The notes beneath the pieces are model-generated. The model was not told where the DNA came from and did not search any database. It saw only the letters and a program-made list of their open reading frames with translations. Shown piece after piece: positions 194 through 48,183 of a DNA stretch of 64,000 nucleotides (its first letter is position 1; every line of letters starts with the position of its first letter). The position numbers and the translations under genes are program-made. The stretch comes from a virus: the IMG/VR virus record IMGVR_UViG_3300022074_000006, positions 1 through 64,000 of that record; one strand, written 5' to 3'.

Positions 194-2116
194 ATGTTCG
201 ATCAAAATCATTTTGGTGAAAGCCAAGTTCCAAAAATAGAAGAAGATACTCAAGTTATCTTTGTAGCGGATTTTTTCGTAGAAGATATTCAGGGAGGAGC
301 CGAACTTACAACAGAGGCTTTGATTAAAAAGGCTCCTGTCAAGGTCCAGAAAATTAAGTCTACTCAGCTGAGTCTCAATATTTTAGAGCAGGGACAAGAC
401 TGTTTTTGGATATTTTGTAATTATGCGGGGATGGACCCACAACTGATACCCACAATTGTAACGAATATCAAATATTCGATAGTTGAATATGACTATAAGT
501 TTTGTGCTTTCAGGTCTATAGAAAAACACAAAGCTGAAACTGGAAATGAATGCAATTGTCACAACGAACCCATAGGAAAGATGGTTTCTGCTTTTATGTA
601 CGGAGCAAAATCAGTCTGGTTCATGTCGGAAAAACAGCATTCACTCTACATAGAAAAATTTCCTTTTCTTTCTGAAGTAGACTCAACTGTGCTAAGCAGT
701 ACATTTTCAGACGAAGCATTCGCTGCGATGAACGTTCTAAGAGACAAGTACCTAGGTAAAAAGAATGACAAGTGGCTTGTTCTGGGATCTACTAGTTGGA
801 TAAAAGGGACAGACAATGCTATAGCTTGGTGCAAGGAAAACAATCATGAATACGAAATTCTAGAAAACCTGTCTCATGGTGAATGTCTCGAGAAGCTAGC
901 ACAGTCAAAAGGTTTAGTTTTTCTTCCAAAGGGTGGCGATACATGTCCTAGAATAACAATCGAAGCAAAAATGCTGGGATGTGAACTGCACTTAAACGAA
1001 AACGTTCAGCACAAAGACGAAGAGTGGTTTGCTACTAGTGATACTTTAACTTTTGAGTCCTATTTGTACGCTGCTCGAGATGTGTTCTGGAATGGTATAA
1101 TTGAAAAAATAAGCTGGTCTCCAACGATTTCTGGCTACACAACCACAAAAGATTGCATCGAGCATGCTTATCCCTGGAAACAATCTATAGAATCGATGCT
1201 TGGATTTTGTGACGAAGTAATAGTAATGGATGGAGGGTCTGCAGATGGAACATATGAAAAGTTAATAGAGTGGGCTTCCAAAGAAGAAAAGCTTAAAGTT
1301 TTTCAAGCAAAGAGAGATTGGAACCATCCAAGATTTGCCGTCTATGATGGAGCACAAAAAGCACTTGCTAGAAGTAAATGTACTATGGATTTTTGCTGGC
1401 AGATGGATGCTGACGAAGTAGTTCATGAAGAAGATTACGACAAAGTCAAAAGTTTGATCAAGAAATTTCCAGGCCAAGTTGATCTAGTTTCTCTTCCGGT
1501 CATAGAGTATTGGGGATCTCCATCAAAAGTTAGAATGGATATAACACCATGGAAATGGAGACTAAGTAGAAACATGCCTACTTTTACGCACGGGATTCCT
1601 AAAGAGCTTAGACTTGAGGATGAAAATGAACAGCTTTACGCCTCTTTGGGGACAGATGGTTGTGACTATGTAGACAGCGAAAATTATGAAAGAATTCCTC
1701 ATGCTTCTTTTTACACTCATGAAGCTGATGACATGCGAATGAAAGCGCTTCAGGGCAACAATGAAGCGATGAAAAACTACGAGGAATGGTTTAACAGGGC
1801 AGTCGACATGCTTCCCTGCGTCCATCATTACTCATGGATAGATATTCCTAGAAAAATAAGAACCTACAAGAATTACTGGTCACAGCATTGGCAGAGCTTG
1901 TACAATATTGAACAGGAAGACACCCCGGAGAACAACATGTTTTTCGACAAAAAGTGGAGTAATGTCACAGATTCGGAAATAAAAAAGCTGGGAGAAAAAC
2001 TAGCTTCGGAAATGGGAGGCTGGATTTTTCATGACAAGGTCGACTTTTCTAGAAAGACTCCTCACATAACTGTAAAAAGAGAGCAACCTCAGATTATGGT
2101 TAATAATAAAAAATGA
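194..2116 (+). CDS. Two-domain glycosyltransferase (N-terminal GT-B/GT4-like, C-terminal GT-A/GT2-like)
   Basis: N-half has DTCPRITIEAKMLGCEL (GT4-type donor-binding helix). C-half has FCDEVIVMDGGSADGT and WQMDADEVVHE (GT2 DxD). Confidence 0.8.
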   Translation: MFDQNHFGESQVPKIEEDTQVIFVADFFVEDIQGGAELTTEALIKKAPVKVQKIKSTQLSLNILEQGQDCFWIFCNYAGMDPQLIPTIVTNIKYSIVEYDYKFCAFRSIEKHKAETGNECNCHNEPIGKMVSAFMYGAKSVWFMSEKQHSLYIEKFPFLSEVDSTVLSSTFSDEAFAAMNVLRDKYLGKKNDKWLVLGSTSWIKGTDNAIAWCKENNHEYEILENLSHGECLEKLAQSKGLVFLPKGGDTCPRITIEAKMLGCELHLNENVQHKDEEWFATSDTLTFESYLYAARDVFWNGIIEKISWSPTISGYTTTKDCIEHAYPWKQSIESMLGFCDEVIVMDGGSADGTYEKLIEWASKEEKLKVFQAKRDWNHPRFAVYDGAQKALARSKCTMDFCWQMDADEVVHEEDYDKVKSLIKKFPGQVDLVSLPVIEYWGSPSKVRMDITPWKWRLSRNMPTFTHGIPKELRLEDENEQLYASLGTDGCDYVDSENYERIPHASFYTHEADDMRMKALQGNNEAMKNYEEWFNRAVDMLPCVHHYSWIDIPRKIRTYKNYWSQHWQSLYNIEQEDTPENNMFFDKKWSNVTDSEIKKLGEKLASEMGGWIFHDKVDFSRKTPHITVKREQPQIMVNNKK

Positions 2117-12191: not shown

Positions 12192-13340
12192 ATGAAAAAA
12201 GTTACGATAAGAGGACCGGTTCTAACTCAGTCTGGGTACGGCGTTCATGCCAGGCAATTTGTAAAGTACGCAATGAGAAAAAAAGATTGGGATTTGTCTT
12301 TTTCTGTCACGCCTTGGGGGATGACCCCCTGGCTCTTAGACACTTCTGATCCTGTTGTAGACTTTGTTACTAAAAGAACAGCACCTCATGACAACGCTGA
12401 CCTAAGTATTCAGATTCAGCTTCCTAACGAATGGAACCCGGGAATTGCGAAAAAAAATATCGGTGTTACAGCCGCCGTAGAGACTGACTTTTGCAATGGT
12501 ATGTGGGTAGATCGATGCAATCAAATGGATGCTGTAATCGTTCCTTCTAGTTTTACAAAGAGTGTGATTGAAAAGTCCGGAACTGTAAAAACAAATCTTG
12601 TGGTTGTAAACGAGGCCTTTCCTGAAGAGTTTGAAGAAGAAGTTAATCCTCTGGATTTAGAATTGGACACAGACTTCAACTTCTTGGTCTATGGACAAGT
12701 CACAGGAACAAATTCTGAAAATGACAGAAAGAATCTTTTCTATACAGTAAAGTGGCTATGTGAAACATTTGAAGGTGACAAAAATGTTGGAATAGTAATA
12801 AAAACAAATTCAGGAAAAAACACAAAGATAGACAGGATGGTAACTCATAGAACCTTGAGTCAACTTATAAAGACTGTTCGAAAGGGAAATTTTCCAAGAA
12901 TTCATCTCTTGCACGGAAATCTAAAGAACAAAGAAGTGGCAGGCCTGTATGTTCACCCTAAAATCAAAGCAATAGTTTCAGCAACTAGAGGAGAAGGTTA
13001 TGGTTTGCCTCTATTAGAGGCAGCTGCGTCAGGTCTCCCGGTAGTTGCCACAAACTGGTCCGGACACCTGGACTTTCTTAAGAAGGGAAGATTTATATCT
13101 CTAGACTACACACTGGAGTCAATCCCTGATGACATGTCAGACAACAACATTTTTATGAAAGGGTCAAAGTGGGCTCAAGTACATGAGTCTGACTTTAAGA
13201 AAAAGCTGAAAAAGCTTAGAGGTAGTCATGACGTTCCTTTGGGATGGGCAAAAGACTTAAGAAAAGTCATACGAAAAGAATTTTCTCAAAAAGCCATAGA
13301 ACAAAAAATTGATGAAGTTGTGGAGAAAATCATAGGATGA
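12192..13340 (+). CDS. Glycosyltransferase family 4 (GT-B)
   Basis: SGYGVHARQF and TRGEGYGLPLLEAAASGLPVVATNWSGH. Confidence 0.9.
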   Translation: MKKVTIRGPVLTQSGYGVHARQFVKYAMRKKDWDLSFSVTPWGMTPWLLDTSDPVVDFVTKRTAPHDNADLSIQIQLPNEWNPGIAKKNIGVTAAVETDFCNGMWVDRCNQMDAVIVPSSFTKSVIEKSGTVKTNLVVVNEAFPEEFEEEVNPLDLELDTDFNFLVYGQVTGTNSENDRKNLFYTVKWLCETFEGDKNVGIVIKTNSGKNTKIDRMVTHRTLSQLIKTVRKGNFPRIHLLHGNLKNKEVAGLYVHPKIKAIVSATRGEGYGLPLLEAAASGLPVVATNWSGHLDFLKKGRFISLDYTLESIPDDMSDNNIFMKGSKWAQVHESDFKKKLKKLRGSHDVPLGWAKDLRKVIRKEFSQKAIEQKIDEVVEKIIG

Positions 13341-14170
13341 AGGTAGGAATTATAGGGCAAGGATTTGTAGGATCTGCTATAAGAGAAGGCCTGAAAGGTT
13401 TTTACGAAGTTTTAACTTACGACACAGACACCAGTAAGTGTAATTCTTCTCATAAAGAAGTATGTACAGAATGTGAAATAATATTCGTCTGTGTGCCAAC
13501 TCCCATGAGAAAATCAGGTGAGTGTGACACTAGAATTTTACAAGGCGCTGTAAATGAAATAAGTGAGCAATGTAAAGTTTCAGGAAAAACTCCTGTTCTA
13601 GTCGTAAAGTCTACGGTTCCTCCCGGAACAACAGATTCTATCTCTAGCAAAACTAGTTTAAAAGTTTGCTTTAGTCCTGAGTTTTTAACAGAAGCTAATT
13701 CTTTTGATGATTTTAAGAATCAGAGCAGGATTATCATTGGAGGCGAAGGAGCAAAAAAAGTCAAACAAATGTTCCGAAAACCTTTTCCCAACATACCGAT
13801 TGTTGTAACAAAGACTCAAACAGCTGAGATGGTAAAATATTACACCAACTGCTTTCTAGCCACAAAGGTTACGTTTGCAAATCAGATGTACGACATATGC
13901 GAAAACTTAGACATTGATTACGACAAAGTAAGTGAATATGCTCTTCTAGATAAAAGAATTGGCAAGAGTCATTTGGCAGTTCCCGGACCTGATGGCGACC
14001 GAGGTTATGGCGGCCACTGTTTTCCTAAAGACGTAGCAGCAATGACTTACTTAGGTAAGAGTAATGATACAAGAGTTAGATTTTTGCAAAGTGTCGAAAG
14101 GGAAAACGAAGCTTACAGAACCGTAGAAGACTGGAAGAAAATGAAGGGAAGAGCAGTCAGCGATGACTAA
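13337..14170 (+). CDS. UDP-glucose/GDP-mannose dehydrogenase family, short form (277 aa)
   Basis: VGIIGQGFVG, VCVPTP, KSTVPPGT, FSPEFL, AEMVKY, GYGGHCFPKD. The C-terminal UDP-binding domain appears absent. Confidence 0.88.
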   Translation: MKVGIIGQGFVGSAIREGLKGFYEVLTYDTDTSKCNSSHKEVCTECEIIFVCVPTPMRKSGECDTRILQGAVNEISEQCKVSGKTPVLVVKSTVPPGTTDSISSKTSLKVCFSPEFLTEANSFDDFKNQSRIIIGGEGAKKVKQMFRKPFPNIPIVVTKTQTAEMVKYYTNCFLATKVTFANQMYDICENLDIDYDKVSEYALLDKRIGKSHLAVPGPDGDRGYGGHCFPKDVAAMTYLGKSNDTRVRFLQSVERENEAYRTVEDWKKMKGRAVSDD

Positions 14171-15063: not shown

Positions 15064-15894
15064 ATGAAAGTTAATTTTCCTACCGGTAAACCTCACATAT
15101 CATTTTCTGAATGGAAGTCCTGGAAAGAGTGCCCATTTAGGCATAAGCTGGCATACATTGACAAAATAGATACTTTTCAACCCTCACCCTTTTTAGACTT
15201 TGGAACAGCAGTTCATGAAGGGGCTGAGTCTTTCTTAAATGAGGGATCAGTCCCCAGAGAGAAACTAATAAATGAAATTAGAGAAGCCTGGCTGAAAAAT
15301 GGTTTCGACAAAAAAGAATGGGTAGAGAAACAGCCAGGGTGGTACAAGTACCACCCAGTTGAAGAGTGGGTTGACTGGGCAAACAACATGTGGGATGAGA
15401 TTCCCGATTATCTTGACAAAGAATTTCCAGGATGGAAGCCGGTAATAGCTGAAGAACAGCTCTATGAAGAAATTCCTGGAGTTGATGTCAAATTTAAAGG
15501 TTTCATAGACGTAATAATAAAACAGCCCAGAAAAAACGGAACATGGAAGTATTGGATCTTAGACTGGAAGACTGCTTCACCTCGAGGGTGGTCTCGAGAT
15601 AAAAAGCAAGATTTCAATATGCAGGCTCAGCTGATCCTATACAAACACTTCTGGGGGACTAAACATAATATTAACATGAGAGACATAGGATGCGGTTTTG
15701 TTTTGCTCAAGAGGGGCGGAAAGAAAGGAAACATATGTTCTCTAGTGAATGTTAGTGCTGGACCAAAGATGATTGAAAAGGCTCAAAAAACTACGAGGTC
15801 CATGATAAAGTCTGTAAAGAAAGGTATGTTTTTGAAGAATAGAAATTCATGTACTTTTTGTGACTTTAAAAATACAGAATATTGCCCGAGTTGA
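15064..15894 (+). CDS. PD-(D/E)XK (Cas4/AddB/RecB-like) exonuclease with probable Fe-S cluster
   Basis: SFSEWKSWKECP, GTAVHE, FKGFIDVII, ILDWKT, QLILY, C-terminal CTFCDFKNTEYC. Confidence 0.88.
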   Translation: MKVNFPTGKPHISFSEWKSWKECPFRHKLAYIDKIDTFQPSPFLDFGTAVHEGAESFLNEGSVPREKLINEIREAWLKNGFDKKEWVEKQPGWYKYHPVEEWVDWANNMWDEIPDYLDKEFPGWKPVIAEEQLYEEIPGVDVKFKGFIDVIIKQPRKNGTWKYWILDWKTASPRGWSRDKKQDFNMQAQLILYKHFWGTKHNINMRDIGCGFVLLKRGGKKGNICSLVNVSAGPKMIEKAQKTTRSMIKSVKKGMFLKNRNSCTFCDFKNTEYCPS

Positions 15895-43200: not shown

Positions 43201-45911
43201 ATGTTTACCCACTTCAACTAGTCAACAAAGAAGATGCTGGAACTGATTCGGGCGTAGGAATGGAGTTTCAGCTAGAAAACACTTCTGGAACTGAGACTAC
43301 CGCAGCAAGGATCACAGTGGACAAAGCTTCCAGCTGGAATTCTGCTGTCAACACTGATGCAAGAATGGTATTTGATGTTGTTTCAGACGGTACTTTGTCA
43401 ACGATTTTAACACTTCGGGATGGAGCCTCAGTCTTTAATACACCTCTAACTGTTTCGCCTGGAATTATCACAGCTGGAGGAGGAATCACTTCCGCGGGAG
43501 ACATATTGTTGACCGGTCAAAAGAAGATTGCATTTGGTTCTGACTTGGTCAATACATACATTGCTGCAGACGCCAACAACCCGGAAAACTTAGAAATTCA
43601 CGCTGACGCCAACATAGAACTAAGGCCCGATGGATCGATATATCATCTTGCTGCTAGTAATTATTTTTCTGAGTACTTGCGTCATAATGGAGATACAGAT
43701 ACGTACATGAGGTTTACAACTGACAAAATAGACCTTTATGCGGGAAATGTCTCTATGATCACTATGACGGAAGACGATTCGCAAGATAAAGTCCAGGTCA
43801 ATGTGGGTCAGGCTGATGTTGACTTTGAGGTTTACTATGACTCCGGAATTGCGTCGAGGATATATGGTTCAGACGGTTCCATTTACTTTTATCGTCCCGT
43901 AACCATGTTTGGCCAAACACAATTAAAATTCAGCTCTTCGGATTCATACATTGCTGCAAACTCAGAGAATCCAGAAGATCTGGAGATACACGCAGATCAG
44001 GATCTTCACTTAAAACCAGACAACGATGTCACTATCTACTACGGTGGAACACAATACGGAACGTTTGATGGATCACAGTATAGGCTGCGCCTTTTTAGAG
44101 AAACAAATGCAAATGTTTACCCACTTCAACTAGTCAACAAAGAAGACACTGGAACTTCAGCAGGAATAGGAATGGAGTTTCAGCTAGAAAACACTTCTGG
44201 AACTGAGACTACCGCAGCAAGGATCACAGTGGACAAAACTTCCGCCTGGAATTCTAATGCTAACACTGACGCAAGAATGGTATTTGATGTTGTGTCAGAC
44301 GGCACTTTAACAACACTCTTGACAGTTCAGAATGGAGCTTCAGTCTTCAATACACCCCTGACTATGCCGACTGGGCTTATCACAGCTGGAGGAGGAATCA
44401 CTTCACTTGGGAATATAACAGTATCAGGTCAAAATAAAATCACATTTGACAGCGCAGACACATACATTGCTGCAAACACTGATAATCCTGAAGATCTTGA
44501 GATCGCTGCAGATCAGAACATCAATATGATTCCTGACAATGACGTTGATATCTACTATGGAGCTTCAAGATACGCTAATTTTGATGGTAACAACTACAGG
44601 CTAAGGATGTTAAGGGAAACAAACGCAGTCGTATGCCCTCTTCAGCTGGTCAACAAAGAAGATACTGGAACTTCAGCAGGAATAGGAATGCAGTTCCAGC
44701 TAGAGAACACTTCTGGGACAGAAAAAACAGCGGGGCAAATAGAGGTAATAAAGGCTTCTGGGTGGAACAGCGGTCCTAACACTGATGGTGAAATGATTTT
44801 CAAAGTAGTCCAGAACGACTCTCTAGGCGAAGTTTTCAGGATCAACTCTTCTCAATTGCTTGCTACGAAAGGCATAGCCAGTAACGATTACCTTAGAGCA
44901 TCTTCAGATGTTTATGTTGGTGGAAACATATATCACTACGGTGACACTAACACCAAGTTAACCTTCGGAGATGATTCGATTACTATCTCGGCGGGAGGCG
45001 TACCTTTCATTAACATAGTAGAAGGGGGAACAGACTCTTTAGTCATAAATCAAGACGGCGGCGACATAGACCTTAGAGTGGAAAGCGACACACTTCAGTA
45101 CGGATTTTATTTGAGAGGAAGTGATGGAAGAATAGGTATAGGAGAAAGCGGCCCGGAAGGCAAGCTGCACATAAAGCAGGTAGCGAACGGTGCTGCTAAT
45201 AACTACGCAGGTGACGCTCTAGTAATAGAAAACGTAAATGGAGCAAGCAAGTGGTACATAGGAATAGATAGCGATGATGAGTTGGTATTTGCTCACAATA
45301 ACAGAAACCCCAGTGAAAACGCAGGCGGCTATCTTTTGGGAAGCGGAAACGGGTCATTTGTTGGAACCATTGACTTTACCGGTCAGCACAGATCTGTTCC
45401 TGCGTCAGGATCGATCTCCGAGTATGAAAATAGAATCGGTATGATAGTAGTGTCTACAGGAGAATATCTAAACCACGAAGGAGAATCTAACACTATTGAC
45501 ACGGCGCTTCCTAAAATAGAACTGAGCTCTTCACCGAATCAAAAGACAGTCTATGGTGTTGTGTCTGCAATTACAGACCCAGAAAAAGAACACCAAACTT
45601 ACTTGCAAGGAGTGTTTGGCACAGTTCTCCCGAAGAAAGAAGATAGGGTCATCATAAATTCTCTGGGCGAAGGGTCAATTTGGGTTTCTAACTTGAACGG
45701 AAATTTAGAGAACGGAGACTACATAACGACGTCAGAAGTCTCGGGCTATGGAATGAAACAAGACGATGACCTTCTACACAACTTCACAGTTGCTAAAATA
45801 ACTCAGGATTGTAATTTTGATATGGAAGGTGAATACCCTTGTGAGGAATTTGAGCATGAAGGAGTCACTTATAGGAAGGCGTTTGTGGGATGCACATATC
45901 ATTGTGGCTGA
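40278..45911 (+). CDS. Long tail fibre with internal repeats and C-terminal chaperone-like domain
   Basis: GIGTETP, GIGTTTP, GLGTSVP, GIGNTNP and GIGESGP fibre motifs. 172-aa repeats. C-terminus FTGQH...VGCTYHCG. GTG start overlaps the upstream TAG. Confidence 0.82.
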   Translation: MSNTYSKAEIDRAEKLVNRNATNSNVTSVTFPHKFQVGLDDENFRSELVAKGNIRLSELSNPPTRPTDGQGGVLYVKNDGKLYYASHEQAEKNLLSGGDLSSITSGGVTFDGTSLHVTTTGDRVSLASAGGALILGNKAGQHLSFDENEIASKSDATTAGTLYLQGDGGKVSIGSLTEADLGIGTETPSYRFHLMSDTASAAEIGVTQINNDTATDGANVRMLRARGTKASPAIVQDGDALGVITFHGYDGTDYATNAAQIWAQADGTPAENDMPGRILLRTTPAGSASPVTRVTIKSDGNTGIGTTTPDEKLDVAGRIAISSESSTPTVSAGVGVLYTKSGGSLYFKSGDVGETDLLASAGSTANLIQTAASSTAANHYVPFFANQTGAQAIKTDGGLLYNPSTNLFTVFTTGNASEFTPLRLYNKNSNTNASVSARFDLVDTSNNSVDSGKIKVSKEQSFTSTSSTQDSSMSFFTSLNGTLTEQMILKSDGKLGLGTSVPAANLHISDTAGGNLIRLDTSNNVSNDPQFYMTGQSGDTTEGFALNYDNNTGDIRYDVFFTSGNHIWRLKQDTDASVGIEGMRLTHDGKLGIGNTNPGYELDVTGDINSSGAVRSNNYLLATKTGGDPAQIILRNNTNEHTSGGAESEILFKDHGNNNLVKVEGSHDGSSDDTKGNFSVYVNNGSSETLRMSINSGGSSNFYGPVVTNSSISATGMIAALGGISAQGNILLSGQNKIAFNTDPTNTYIAAGSGATEDLEIHADDDIKFKPDDDIHIYKGDVLYSTFDGSDYRLRMIRSTNSIVYPLQVINNDSTSGTSAGIGMQFQLENTSGIESTAASIYTKKSSNWSTAALTDAALYFNVSQNGALSNKLTIGNTISSFTTNLTSNGLITAESGILSNGNITLSSQNKAVFGTTDTYIAANAENPEDLEIHADQDMHLKPDNDILVYYGGTQYGTFDGSQYRLRLFRETNANVYPLQLVNKEDAGTDSGVGMEFQLENTSGTETTAARITVDKASSWNSAVNTDARMVFDVVSDGTLSTILTLRDGASVFNTPLTVSPGIITAGGGITSAGDILLTGQKKIAFGSDLVNTYIAADANNPENLEIHADANIELRPDGSIYHLAASNYFSEYLRHNGDTDTYMRFTTDKIDLYAGNVSMITMTEDDSQDKVQVNVGQADVDFEVYYDSGIASRIYGSDGSIYFYRPVTMFGQTQLKFSSSDSYIAANSENPEDLEIHADQDLHLKPDNDVTIYYGGTQYGTFDGSQYRLRLFRETNANVYPLQLVNKEDTGTSAGIGMEFQLENTSGTETTAARITVDKTSAWNSNANTDARMVFDVVSDGTLTTLLTVQNGASVFNTPLTMPTGLITAGGGITSLGNITVSGQNKITFDSADTYIAANTDNPEDLEIAADQNINMIPDNDVDIYYGASRYANFDGNNYRLRMLRETNAVVCPLQLVNKEDTGTSAGIGMQFQLENTSGTEKTAGQIEVIKASGWNSGPNTDGEMIFKVVQNDSLGEVFRINSSQLLATKGIASNDYLRASSDVYVGGNIYHYGDTNTKLTFGDDSITISAGGVPFINIVEGGTDSLVINQDGGDIDLRVESDTLQYGFYLRGSDGRIGIGESGPEGKLHIKQVANGAANNYAGDALVIENVNGASKWYIGIDSDDELVFAHNNRNPSENAGGYLLGSGNGSFVGTIDFTGQHRSVPASGSISEYENRIGMIVVSTGEYLNHEGESNTIDTALPKIELSSSPNQKTVYGVVSAITDPEKEHQTYLQGVFGTVLPKKEDRVIINSLGEGSIWVSNLNGNLENGDYITTSEVSGYGMKQDDDLLHNFTVAKITQDCNFDMEGEYPCEEFEHEGVTYRKAFVGCTYHCG
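42447..45140 (+). repeat. Four copies of a 516-522-bp intragenic repeat plus two copies of a second, shorter motif
   Basis: Unit starts at 42447, 42969, 43485 and 44397. Copies 2 and 3 share long exact DNA blocks at an offset of 912 nt. Confidence 0.9.
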
Positions 45912-47087
45912 CTAGTCGATGTAGTCGAAATATCCTCTAATAGTATAACCATTTTGAAAAGCCCATACGTCTAAGATTTCAAGATCACTCATAGGAATAC
46001 CCATTCCTCCCATTTCCATTACATTTTCGTTACCTTTTCCTGCAATAAGAATGGTGGCATTAGTAAACTCAGAAAGGGAAGTAGTGATTGCTTCTCTTCT
46101 GTCAAGCTTTATTGAAACTCTGTCTATCTTTTCAATACCAGTCAGTATGTCTTTTATAATTTCTCTAGGGTTTTCTTCTCTTGGGTTGTCGTTTGTGAGT
46201 ACAACGTAGCTGCTTAGCCTTGACGCCACTTCTCCCATTAGAGGTCTTTTTTCTTTTGACTTGTTTCCGCCGCACCCAAATATTGTTACTATTTTTCTAA
46301 TCCCTTTGTTTTCATTTAGGAAATTAAGCTGATTCTCTAAGCTTGTGTGCGTGTGAGCGTAGTCTATCACTACTAGAGAGTCTGTCTCAACTATGTGATA
46401 AACATTAGATCTACCTTTGACACCCGGAAAAGACTTGATAGACGCTATGATGTCTTCACATGCGATGCCGTACATTTGACAGCATAGAAAAGCAGCAGCG
46501 CAGTTTTGAGCATTGAATTCTCCGTACTGAACAGTTGAGATAGTGTGTGTGTCACCATTCAAGTCTTTGAGATCAAAAGTCATAAGACCCGAAGTGTGCA
46601 CAAGATTAGATAGAATGACATTAGAGCCTTCTGAGAAACCATATGAGACAACTTTGTCCTCATGTCCAATAATAATGTCATCAAAAAATTCCGTGTCCTT
46701 AGAGACAAAAACTCTGCCTCCTGGAGCAGTGAAATGAAAGATATTTCTTTTCGCTTCTAGATATTCACCCGAAGTTTCATAGAGTTCGGAATGCTCTGTT
46801 TCTTCAAAACCTGTAAAGACACCAATATCTATCGGATTGTCTCTGTAACAGTCTAAAGTTAGGACGAAAGAAGTAGCTTCTGATATGATGACGTCTGACT
46901 CATTTTTTGCTGGGTGGTCAAAGTAAAGCTCAGCACTTCTAGAAGGGTTGTCAGGAAATCCATCAACATAAGGACCGTCTATTCCATATTCTCCAAAAAC
47001 TGACTTTCCGTTAGACATGAGAACATGCTGAACGATTCTAGTGACTGTCGTTTTTCCTTTTGTGCCTGTTATTGCTATATGATTCAT
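45912..47087 (-). CDS. murE: Mur ligase, MurE-like, lacking the N-terminal domain
   Basis: ITGTKGKTT P-loop, YLEAK, GEFNAQN, KGR, VIDYAHT, FGCGGN..KRPLMG, TNDNPR, LIAGKGNE. Confidence 0.85.
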   Translation of the reverse strand: MNHIAITGTKGKTTVTRIVQHVLMSNGKSVFGEYGIDGPYVDGFPDNPSRSAELYFDHPAKNESDVIISEATSFVLTLDCYRDNPIDIGVFTGFEETEHSELYETSGEYLEAKRNIFHFTAPGGRVFVSKDTEFFDDIIIGHEDKVVSYGFSEGSNVILSNLVHTSGLMTFDLKDLNGDTHTISTVQYGEFNAQNCAAAFLCCQMYGIACEDIIASIKSFPGVKGRSNVYHIVETDSLVVIDYAHTHTSLENQLNFLNENKGIRKIVTIFGCGGNKSKEKRPLMGEVASRLSSYVVLTNDNPREENPREIIKDILTGIEKIDRVSIKLDRREAITTSLSEFTNATILIAGKGNENVMEMGGMGIPMSDLEILDVWAFQNGYTIRGYFDYID

Positions 47088-47108
47088 TTTTAACTCCGAG
47101 TAAGAAAA

Positions 47109-47117
47109 AGTATACCA
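47109..47117 (-). promoter_or_regulatory. Extended -10 promoter (TGGTATACT) for the murE-like gene
   Basis: Reverse complement of 47109-47117 is TGnTATACT. GGAG at 47094-97 (minus strand) lies 6 nt before the ATG. Confidence 0.55.
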
Positions 47118-47134
47118 TTGAACGGGCTACTGTT

Positions 47135-47166
47135 TAAGGAGGTCGACTGTGGGATCACTAGATTAA
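47135..47166 (+). other. Full Shine-Dalgarno sequence (TAAGGAGGT) followed by a 5-codon minigene GTG GGA TCA CTA GAT TAA
   Basis: SD at 47135-47143, 5-nt spacer, GTG at 47149, TAA at 47164-66. Confidence 0.4.
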
Positions 47167-47214
47167 CTGTAGACTCACTGTGTTGAATACTTATACTTCT
47201 GAGGAGTATGCAAA

Positions 47215-48183
47215 GTGGCTGGTATATTAGATCCTAAAACTAGAGTCATGGACTTTATCATGACAGAGCTGGGTAGAGAGCAAGCTGCTCAAGGAGAAAT
47301 GAGAATTAAGTACGCAACGTTTACGGACCGCGCGGCATTCTATTCTTCAGGCTCAATCAAAGGAGTTGCAGATCCTGCAGAAAATAGACTTTACTTCGAG
47401 GCTGCATCTTCGCCTCATGACTCTATTGTAATAGAATCTGACTTTGATGGAAATATAAAACCATTTGATGCCGATGAATTTAAAATAGATGGATCTGATG
47501 TAATAAAACAAACAGCTCTTCCAGGTCAAGATATTGTTTTAAAGACAGGCCAGATATTGCCGATCGCTTCTAAGATATTGAATAGTATAACTTCTTCAAT
47601 AGAAAGCACTCAGTATATTAGAACCACCGATCTTTTCATAGAAGATAGAGACTTTGTTGCAGAACCTAAAACTCTTTTCTATTCTTACAATGACGATCCT
47701 GACTTGCCATCATCACCATACTCAGAAAGCGCGAAGAGTGTTGTTCTGGTAGATCAATTAACCAGTCTTTTTCAAGACAAGAAACTTGCTCACATTCCAA
47801 GCTTTCATTTTTTACCACCTAGGAATATGCCGAGCCCTGAGAATAATGACGGAAATTCTCTGGGTGAATATGCAAAATTTAGAGATGAATATGACGACAA
47901 GCAAAATCCAAGAAAAGCTTACGATGATTCTCTAAATTCTGGCTTTGAAAAAAGAAGAATCTATTTTAACGAAAGAACTCCTGACAACAATCTAATAGTT
48001 CAGCCGTTTCATTTTAGTGAAGACGGAGTTGACAAGCTTTCTGTAGTCGATGGAGGCCAATACGTTAAAGAGACGACAGGAGAAAGACGTCATGTCTTTT
48101 ACATAGGTCGACTTTTCGCTGATACGAAAAAAACTACCACCTACATTCACCTGTTTACTTTAGTCTTTAGAGAGAGAAATTAA
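47215..48183 (+). CDS. Baseplate/fibre-attachment-like protein, paralogous at its N-terminus to 58203-58913
   Basis: MAGILDPKTRVMDFIMTELGREQAAQGEMRIKYATFTD. GAGGAG SD at 47201-06, GTG start. Confidence 0.6.
   Translation: MAGILDPKTRVMDFIMTELGREQAAQGEMRIKYATFTDRAAFYSSGSIKGVADPAENRLYFEAASSPHDSIVIESDFDGNIKPFDADEFKIDGSDVIKQTALPGQDIVLKTGQILPIASKILNSITSSIESTQYIRTTDLFIEDRDFVAEPKTLFYSYNDDPDLPSSPYSESAKSVVLVDQLTSLFQDKKLAHIPSFHFLPPRNMPSPENNDGNSLGEYAKFRDEYDDKQNPRKAYDDSLNSGFEKRRIYFNERTPDNNLIVQPFHFSEDGVDKLSVVDGGQYVKETTGERRHVFYIGRLFADTKKTTTYIHLFTLVFRERN

What the first reader, a model, noticed from the sequence alone, without database searches (positions are those of the whole stretch)
45912..47087. Phage-encoded MurE-like ligase with an intact DAP pocket but a remodelled acceptor site
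The amino-acid-binding C-domain is canonical for meso-DAP-adding MurE (KRPLMG, DNPR, AGKGxE), and the P-loop Lys and carbamylated-Lys position (YLEAK) are kept. However, the whole N-terminal uridine-binding domain is missing and central motifs diverge: GTNGKT to GTKGKT, EVSSH to EATSF, TNLSRDHLDYH to TGFEETEHSELY. It may ligate DAP or a similar amino acid to a non-standard acceptor, such as a sugar from the glycan island, a recycled muropeptide or a protein. It could instead rewire or poison host peptidoglycan synthesis. Mur ligases are not typical phage genes.
Basis: partly seen in the sequence, partly recalled or inferred. Interest (0 to 1): 0.8.

Follow-up and report, generated by a model that had tools for sequence, protein, structure and literature searches.

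The report
Phage MurE-like ligase lacking UDP domain
A large aquatic phage carries a conserved, apparently active cell-wall-type (MurE) ligase that has lost the parts that grip the usual UDP-sugar-peptide substrate, so it probably joins diaminopimelate to an acceptor that is still unknown.

Summary
Window 45912-47087 (-) encodes a 391-aa protein made only of the Mur ligase middle and C-terminal domains. Its best matches are MurE models, from profile position ~105 onward.

It is not a decaying fragment. About 30 metagenomic homologues (32-60% identity, 377-422 aa) all lack the N-domain. They keep every catalytic residue and the DNPR / GKGxE amino-acid pocket. They form one strongly supported long-stem clade inside MurE.

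The acceptor site is remodelled across the whole family. Domain 1 is gone, the TTPE loop is replaced, and the conserved Arg (E. coli R193 / M. tuberculosis R230) and the Asn of "TN" are lost.

The gene is phage-borne. Terminase, portal and a T4-like capsid gene lie on the same IMG/VR record, which CheckV rates 42% complete, suggesting a genome of roughly 300 kb.

It is an accessory antisense cassette at the 3' end of a tail-fibre gene. It is absent from 20 related large phage records, which show an empty site.

The likeliest function is an ATP-dependent ligase that adds DAP (or a close analogue) to a carboxylate acceptor without a UDP handle. The acceptor is not identified. I rate it a new variant of a known kind, of moderate to high interest. 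The scan has noted this stretch only in this genome.

The parts
45912..47087 (-). 391-aa MurE-derived ligase gene without an N-terminal UDP-binding domain (stop codon at 45912-45914)
   Evidence: ORF and translation; Pfam M + C domains only; MurE NCBIfam models matched from profile position ~105; AF2 model with pLDDT 88.8 matching MurE structures at TM 0.82-0.87
46482..47072 (-). Mur ligase middle (ATPase) domain, residues 6-202. Contains the P-loop GTKGKTT (47046-47066), Mg-binding Glu E70 in EATS, His H99 in EH, and the carbamyl-Lys position K113 in YLEAK
   Evidence: These residues are invariant in 26 homologues. They map onto E. coli K120, E183, H211 and K225
46032..46391 (-). Mur ligase C-terminal (amino-acid-binding) domain, residues 233-352. 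Contains FGCGGNK, KRPLMG, DNPR (46179-46190) and GKGNE
   Evidence: invariant columns. The role of DNPR and of the Glu in mDAP binding is taken from PMC3829189
45915..45983 (-). Family-specific C-terminal tail (residues ~369-391, W..QN.Y..RG..DY.D) that extends beyond the end of canonical MurE
   Evidence: Alignments with E. coli MurE and full-length MurEs; conserved within the near subfamily; low pLDDT in the model
47088..47214 (.). 127-bp divergent intergenic region. On the - strand it has GGAG (47094-47097) 6 nt before the ATG, and a sigma-70-like site TAAACA-16-TATACT with an upstream TG (47136-47109). A conserved block next to the start of the 322-aa gene lies on the other side
   Evidence: Sequence; promoter scan, where the number of sites is not above the shuffled controls; a TAAACA-N16-TATAAT site at the same position in L001 and the conserved block in window/L001/L004
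40278..45911 (+). 1877-aa tail-fibre-like gene that converges on the ligase. Its TGA stop (45909-45911) abuts the ligase stop with zero spacer
   Evidence: PHROG tail-fibre hits; sequence of the junction
47215..48183 (+). 322-aa conserved virion-region gene, divergent from the ligase. In ligase-less relatives it directly follows a co-directional gene (the empty site)
   Evidence: 59% identical in L001 and L004; homologues in 5 ligase-less phage records, preceded at a short distance by a same-strand gene; no Pfam or PHROG family

Best explanation
The gene encodes an active ATP-dependent amide ligase that descends from MurE.

Shown: it has the MurE middle and C-terminal fold. All residues needed for ATP binding and acyl-phosphate chemistry, and the meso-DAP-type pocket (DNPR, GKGxE), are kept under purifying selection in a monophyletic family. 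Every member whose genomic context could be read is on a phage contig.

Inferred: it activates a carboxylate with ATP and joins meso-diaminopimelate, or a close diamino-acid analogue, to it. [quoted passage not shown]

My best guess for the acceptor class (about 0.25 on its own) is a stem-peptide-type carboxylate on a non-UDP carrier. This could be a lipid-linked precursor, or a free or recycled muropeptide. The precedent is MurT, the other Mur ligase without an N-domain, which acts on lipid I/II and not on UDP precursors.

The gene is an accessory, moron-like cassette at the 3' end of a tail-fibre gene. It is transcribed antisense to the late genes from its own sigma-70-like promoter. It is therefore probably made early and silenced when late transcription runs through it.
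For: - Domain content and MurE affinity.
- Fold: AF2 pLDDT 88.8; best Foldseek hits are 4BUB, 8G6P, 1E8C and 4C13 at TM 0.82-0.87.
- Purifying selection: the P-loop Lys, E70, H99, K113, DYAH, GR, DNPR and GKGxE are invariant in 26 sequences that are only 32-60% identical.
- Single origin: all N-less sequences form one clade with SH-aLRT 100 and stem length 0.63, inside MurE when rooted on E. coli MurC/D/F.
- Acceptor-site loss across the family: TTP is 89/89 versus 0/31, R193 is 99% versus 3%, and N206 is 99% versus 0%.
- These positions are M. tuberculosis T195/T196/E198 and R230 (mapping). They are named as key substrate-site residues in PMC3133487, PMC6736417 and PMC7663697.
- DNPR and the Glu bind mDAP (PMC3829189).
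- MurT precedent: PMC6085368.
- Phage context and conserved synteny.
- Accessory status: absent from 20 related records, with positive controls matching, and an empty site in 5 relatives.
- Zero-spacer convergent stops and the promoter-like site.
Against: - No biochemical data exist, and the acceptor is purely inferred.
- The phage record is only 42% complete, so an N-domain supplied in trans from the missing part cannot be excluded.
- The pocket is not fully canonical: R390 is K, and H468, Y471 and Q472 are lost.
- The closest solved relative, T. maritima MurE, adds Lys, so the nucleophile may not be DAP.
- The number of promoter-like sites in the region is not above the shuffled expectation.
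- Genomic context is known for only five loci, because the look-up of encoding contigs closed. Phage restriction of the deep branches is therefore unproven. The ESM Atlas lists ~390-410-aa M+C-only clusters labelled bacterial (a lead only).
Confidence: 0.55

Rival explanations
1. [quoted passage not shown] In this reading it is an auxiliary metabolic gene that keeps or boosts the host's peptidoglycan precursor supply during infection, and it binds the substrate without domain 1.
For: The closest families by every measure are MurE DAP ligases. The catalytic and DAP-pocket residues are intact. According to PMC3829189, domain 2 holds most of the UDP-MurNAc-tripeptide pocket.
Against: Domain 1, with its uridine and diphosphate contacts, is absent. 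The domain-2 residues that hold the substrate (TTPE loop, R193/R230, N206) are also lost in all 31 members while being ~100% conserved in 89 full-length MurEs. Scores fall below the MurE equivalog and subfamily cut-offs. The clade sits on a long stem branch.
Confidence: 0.15
2. It is a glycan-tailoring amidoligase. It attaches a diamino acid to a sugar-borne carboxylate, such as a uronic acid made by the island's WecB and UDP-sugar dehydrogenase, or a lactyl or pyruvyl group, on the product of the phage's 17-kb glycosylation island.
For: The window encodes GT2 and GT4 glycosyltransferases, methyltransferases, a carbamoyltransferase, WecB, SDR epimerases and a UDP-sugar dehydrogenase. In the related record L006/G001 the ligase lies immediately next to, and divergent from, the 636-aa head gene of this island, which is 56% identical to the window's.
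Against: The head gene has at least 96 IMG/VR relatives. None of 80 loci (+/-10 kb) carries the ligase, and none of 20 large related records does either, four of which are at least 90% complete. The marine family member L003 has no glycan genes within 10 kb. The adjacency in L006 is equally well explained by the ligase again sitting at the 3' end of a tail-fibre gene.
Confidence: 0.12
3. It is a non-catalytic or antagonistic protein. It could be a DAP or ATP binder, or a decoy that sequesters precursors or partners and so poisons host wall synthesis. Alternatively it could be a structural co-opted MurE-like protein, as PAP11 is in plastid RNA polymerase.
For: MurE-like proteins have been co-opted for non-enzymatic roles: PAP11 chains are among the structural hits. 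The position as a moron-like cassette after a fibre gene fits a host-manipulation gene.
Against: The P-loop Lys, the Mg-binding Glu and His, the carbamyl-Lys position and the DNPR Arg are invariant across a family as divergent as 32% identity. That is the pattern expected of an enzyme, not of a binder.
Confidence: 0.08

Closest known systems
MurE, UDP-N-acetylmuramoyl-L-alanyl-D-glutamate:meso-2,6-diaminopimelate ligase (EC 6.3.2.13; TIGR01085, NF001126; PDB 1E8C, 2WTZ, 4BUB)
   Same: Same middle and C-terminal folds. Shares the P-loop, Mg-binding Glu and His, carbamyl-Lys position, DYAH, GR, the DNPR and GKGxE DAP pocket, and KRPLMG. The family nests within MurE in the tree.
   Different: No N-terminal UDP-binding domain. 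The TTPE loop is replaced. R193, N206, T143, H468, Y471 and Q472 are lost. EVSS becomes EATS and DH becomes EH. It has an extra C-terminal tail. It scores below the model cut-offs, sits on a long stem branch, and is carried by phages.
MurT (with GatD), the lipid II D-iGlu amidotransferase
   Same: A Mur-ligase middle + C-terminal architecture without a uridine-binding N-domain. This is the precedent that such enzymes act on non-UDP (lipid-linked) acceptors (PMC6085368).
   Different: There is no DUF1727-type C-domain and no GatD partner nearby. MurT lacks the active-site His, which this protein keeps. This protein's C-domain is MurE-type with DNPR. Sequence affinity is to MurE, not MurT.
Other two-domain or embedded Mur-ligase-superfamily enzymes: FolC/FPGS, PgsB/CapB, the cyanophycin synthetase M domain, Mpl, CfbE and the pseudomurein pMur ligases
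   Same: ATP-dependent carboxylate-amine ligation on the same middle + C scaffold. Several of them act on non-nucleotide acceptors.
   Different: Only weak matches, all far below the family cut-offs: folC 35 versus 163 bits, PgsB 17 versus 223, cyanophycin 79 versus 850, mpl 24 versus 389, pMurE 28 versus 600.

Membership tests
Mur ligase superfamily (ATP-dependent amide ligases) | Mur_ligase_M and Mur_ligase_C domains above the Pfam gathering scores | tested here: met
   PF08245 scores 85.2 bits (cut-off 24) and PF02875 scores 83.7 bits (cut-off 28.4)
Mur ligase superfamily (ATP-dependent amide ligases) | Catalytic set present: P-loop Lys, Mg-binding Glu, active-site His, carbamylated-Lys position | tested here: met
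   K12, E70, H99 and K113 align with E. coli K120, E183, H211 and K225 and are invariant in the family
MurE (EC 6.3.2.13) | Three-domain architecture with an N-terminal UDP-binding domain (PF01225) | tested here: not met
   The protein has no PF01225. The stop-to-stop frame is only 404 aa. There is no PF01225 anywhere in the 133-kb record. All 31 homologues lack it
MurE (EC 6.3.2.13) | Score above the curated NCBIfam MurE cut-offs | tested here: not met
   TIGR01085 scores 228.7 against 257.3, and NF001126 scores 240.1 against 373
MurE (EC 6.3.2.13) | [quoted passage not shown] | tested here: not met
   TTP is present in 0/31 short versus 89/89 full-length sequences, and R193 in 3% versus 99%.
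MurE (EC 6.3.2.13) | meso-DAP pocket motif DNPR plus the Glu of GKGxE | tested here: met
   D300, N301, P302, R303 and E354 are invariant. Their roles are taken from PMC3829189
MurE (EC 6.3.2.13) | [quoted passage not shown] | not testable with these tools
   Needs an enzyme assay or complementation
MurT | MurT-type C-terminal domain (DUF1727) and a partner GatD glutaminase | tested here: not met
   Pfam finds only Mur_ligase_M and Mur_ligase_C. The neighbours are a fibre gene and a 322-aa protein with no family
FolC / PgsB / CphA / Mpl | Score above the family's NCBIfam cut-off | tested here: not met
   All scores are 5- to 10-fold below the cut-offs

The most novel reading that the evidence does not exclude
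A phage-specific branch of MurE has been retooled into a new ligase that attaches diaminopimelate to a non-nucleotide acceptor. The acceptor could be a lipid-linked wall precursor, a free muropeptide, a phage glycan or a protein. This would let some jumbo phages chemically re-programme the host envelope or their own components early in infection. That would be a reaction and a phage strategy not described before.
Probability: 0.3. Interest if true: 0.8.

Novelty: new variant of a known kind. Interest (0 to 1): 0.6.

Why it matters
Mur ligases are textbook, essential, cell-restricted enzymes and are antibiotic targets. This family is conserved, monophyletic and phage-borne wherever its context could be read. 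It keeps the chemistry and the DAP pocket but discards everything that recognises the UDP-MurNAc handle. That implies a new substrate and a new way for phages to act on cell-wall metabolites.

The hypothesis is directly testable, because the protein is small, well folded in silico and has clear catalytic residues. It would also give a natural example of how acceptor specificity in MurE-type ligases can be rewired.

Tried and rejected
1. "GTKGKT is divergent" was rejected. 65 of 89 full-length MurEs have it.
2. A decaying or truncated pseudogene was rejected. The catalytic residues are invariant and the length is conserved in ~30 homologues.
3. Assembly chimera was rejected. The same synteny occurs in independent ENA and Logan assemblies.
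4. An N-domain in a neighbouring ORF was rejected. There is none in the window or the 133-kb record, and the ORFs upstream of the L003 homologue have no Pfam family.
5. Ligase as a core part of the glycan island was rejected as a general rule.
6. A family-specific motif scan of 185,579 species genomes (FGCGGNK...KR) gave 78 hits. All were full-length MurE with NKD/NKG, and no N-less member was found. This also showed that R390K is not family-specific.
7. Metagenome scans gave no new context. P0027 returned nothing, and A1 returned mostly canonical MurE plus one 2-kb family contig.
8. IMG/VR holds only one full and one partial family locus.
9. The conserved block upstream of the 322-aa gene is not a promoter motif repeated across the genome.
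10. Six literature searches found no description of phage-encoded or N-less MurE.
11. The look-up of encoding contigs failed and was closed, so the contexts of the deep-branching members (P0026, P0027, P0032, P0049, P0122) could not be read.
12. No tRNAs were found, and no close cultured phage. The nearest capsid relatives are Microcystis, Flavobacterium and Rhodothermus myophages at 32-44% identity, so the host is unknown.

Full report
**What is there.** Window 45912-47087 on the minus strand holds a 391-aa ORF. A GGAG lies 6 nt before its ATG. The stop-to-stop frame is only 404 aa. The 127 bp upstream run into a divergent plus-strand gene, so there is no room for a further N-terminal domain. 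Pfam finds the Mur ligase middle domain (residues 6-202) and the C-terminal domain (233-352), and nothing else. The best NCBIfam matches are MurE DAP-ligase models aligned from profile position ~105 to the end (E 4e-71 and 1e-67), and all are below their curated cut-offs. MurC, MurD, MurF, Mpl, FolC, PgsB, CphA and the pseudomurein ligases score far lower. The closest solved sequences are MurE of T. maritima (4BUB, E 2e-43), Acinetobacter, E. coli and M. tuberculosis, always starting at residue ~105-150 of the chain. An AlphaFold model built on the family alignment is confident (pLDDT 88.8, pTM 0.85). Its best Foldseek hits are MurE structures with TM 0.82-0.87 over the query.

**A real family, not a broken gene.** A search of 5.8 billion proteins gave about 30 proteins of 377-422 aa that are 32-60% identical. 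All have the M and C domains only. Below them come full-length (~490 aa) MurEs at ~35% identity. A profile search of 1.84 billion cluster representatives adds a handful of further short members and no fused form. The ~950-aa hits in that search are ordinary MurE-MurF fusions. In the 26-sequence alignment the following are invariant: GTKGK, E70, T72, S73, T92, E98-H99, Y109, K113, N192, N195, G225-R226, DYAH, FGCGG, K280-R281, M284, DNPR, E305, D329-R330, GKGxE. Aligned to E. coli MurE, these include the P-loop Lys, the Mg-binding Glu, the active-site His, the carbamyl-Lys position and the DNPR/Glu DAP pocket. The role of the pocket residues comes from PMC3829189. In a maximum-likelihood tree (26 short sequences, 44 full-length, E. 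coli MurC/D/F as outgroup) all N-less sequences form one clade with SH-aLRT 100 and a stem of 0.63 substitutions per site, nested in MurE. This was the quick method, so deeper placements are unresolved. One 503-aa row, which I first grouped as full-length because of its length, is also N-less and has a C-terminal extension.

**What has changed.** I contrasted 89 full-length MurEs with 31 short ones column by column.
- Domain 1 is absent.
- The TTP(E) motif is present in 89/89 full-length sequences and 0/31 short ones.
- E. coli R193 is 99% conserved in full-length sequences against 3% in short ones. N206 is 99% against 0%. T143 is 100% against 19%.
- EVSS becomes EATS, and DH becomes EH.
- In the C-domain, R390 becomes K, and H468, Y471 and Q472 are lost.

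Mapping onto M. tuberculosis MurE, TTPE is T195-E198 and R193 is R230. [quoted passage not shown] So nearly all acceptor-handle contacts are gone, while the residues at the reacting carboxylate are kept (H99, plus T72 in place of S222). GTKGKTT is the commonest P-loop among the nearest full-length MurEs (65/89). The R390K change also occurs in genuine full-length MurE of Ignavibacteria and Phycisphaerae. The family also has a ~20-aa C-terminal tail that canonical MurE lacks.

**Phage context.** The window is the first 64 kb of a 133,292-bp IMG/VR virus record that CheckV rates 42% complete, which suggests a genome of roughly 300 kb. The record encodes a large terminase, a portal, a T4-type major capsid protein, a primase and SbcC. 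The nearest cultured capsid relatives are Microcystis, Flavobacterium and Rhodothermus myophages at 32-44% identity. Of the 70 ORFs of 150 aa or more that are not nested inside a larger plus-strand ORF, only two are on the minus strand: the ligase, and a 151-aa ORF at 132773-133228 near the end of the record, which I did not examine. Homologues at 53-55% identity in independent assemblies (L001 on a 278-kb contig, L002, L004) sit in the same place. The order there is giant fibre-like genes, then the antisense ligase, then a 320-aa gene, then genes of 960-990, ~1690 and 628 aa. That rules out a chimera.

In a more distant IMG/VR record (L006/G001, 39% identity) the ligase is again antisense and again converges on a tail-fibre gene. 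There, however, its other neighbour is the 636-aa head gene of the glycan island. A 42%-identical member on an 81-kb Tara Oceans contig (L003) lies co-directionally among small early-type genes. Its neighbours include an HNH endonuclease and a PurZ-like adenylosuccinate synthetase.

**An accessory cassette.** The 640-aa island head gene has at least 96 relatives in IMG/VR. No ligase lies within 10 kb of it in 80 such loci. None is found in 20 related records of 101-324 kb, four of which are at least 90% complete. The same profile matches G000 and G001 strongly, which serves as the positive control. In five ligase-less relatives the homologue of the 322-aa gene follows a same-strand gene at a short distance, which is an empty site. 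A motif scan of one genome from each of 185,579 prokaryote species found no N-less member. That pattern covers only about 70% of the family.

In the window, the fibre gene's TGA and the ligase's stop (CTA on the plus strand) abut with no spacer. Late transcription must therefore read antisense through the ligase. Upstream of the ligase there is a TAAACA-16-TATACT site with an upstream TG, and a TAAACA-N16-TATAAT site lies at the same position in L001. This is suggestive only, because the count of such sites is not above the shuffled controls.

**How it most likely works.**
- Shown: MurE-type fold, conserved catalytic machinery, a DAP-type pocket, and loss of the UDP-MurNAc handle contacts.
- Inferred: the enzyme phosphorylates a carboxylate with ATP and couples meso-DAP, or a near analogue, to it, on an acceptor that has no UDP.

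The only well-studied Mur ligase without an N-domain is MurT, which acts on lipid I/II and not on UDP precursors (PMC6085368). This makes a lipid-linked or free stem-peptide-type acceptor my leading guess. A glycan-borne carboxylate from the phage's glycosylation island is possible, but the co-occurrence data disfavour it. Retention of normal MurE activity is unlikely given the family-wide losses, though it is not excluded. A purely binding role is unlikely given the invariant catalytic residues.

**Limits.**
- The record is incomplete.
- Context is known for five loci only, because the look-up of encoding contigs failed and was closed.
- The ESM Atlas lists ~390-410-aa M+C-only "MurE family" clusters labelled bacterial. 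These may be fragments or cellular N-less paralogues and were not followed up.
- Six searches of the literature library found no description of a phage-encoded or N-less MurE. The library is not exhaustive.
- The scan's earlier notes on this stretch are all from this same genome.

**Verdict.** This is a new, rare variant of a known enzyme kind. It comprises about 15 clusters at 50% identity among 1.84 billion representatives. It is phage-borne and accessory. Its chemistry can be predicted with some confidence, but its acceptor is unknown.

Noticed in passing
window 15064-15894 (+): A PD-(D/E)XK nuclease-family gene (Pfam E 3e-26) sits inside the otherwise sugar-related 'glycan island'. It is conserved at 48% identity in the related record L006. 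This raises the question of whether the island modifies DNA rather than, or as well as, proteins or envelope.
   Followed up: no
window 194-2116 (+): The 640-aa protein has a GT2 domain only at residues ~339-437 and an unassigned 330-aa N-terminal part. It has at least 96 relatives (43-59% identity) on large IMG/VR contigs up to 324 kb, but no match in 50,697 deposited phage records. It marks a big, uncultured jumbo-phage group.
   Followed up: partly
window 13337-14170 (+): The UDP-sugar dehydrogenase is only 277 aa. It has the N-terminal and central domains but apparently lacks the usual C-terminal UDP-binding domain.
   Followed up: no
window 47170-47214 (read on - strand: CTCCTCAG[A/C]AGTATAAGTATTCAACA): A ~26-nt block just upstream of the 322-aa gene is nearly identical in window, L001 and L004, although the flanking proteins are only 28-59% identical. 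It includes that gene's GAGGAG ribosome-binding site and perhaps a phage promoter. It does not recur elsewhere in the 133-kb record.
   Followed up: partly
L003 14082-15080 (+): The Tara Oceans phage contig that carries a 42%-identical ligase also encodes a PurZ-type (2-aminoadenine pathway) adenylosuccinate synthetase (phrog_1211, E 3e-71). This suggests a Z-base genome.
   Followed up: no
genome G000 (whole 133,292-bp record): No tRNA genes were found. 68 of the 70 ORFs of 150 aa or more that are not nested inside a larger ORF are on one strand. The two on the other strand are the ligase and a 151-aa ORF at 132773-133228. Shine-Dalgarno-like motifs precede 54% of predicted starts against a 17% background. 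CheckV completeness is 42%, suggesting a genome of roughly 300 kb.
   Followed up: partly
L006 18687-19973 (-): A PhoH-like gene (phrog_2765, E 7e-96) lies near the ligase in the related IMG/VR record. PhoH is typical of aquatic phages.
   Followed up: no
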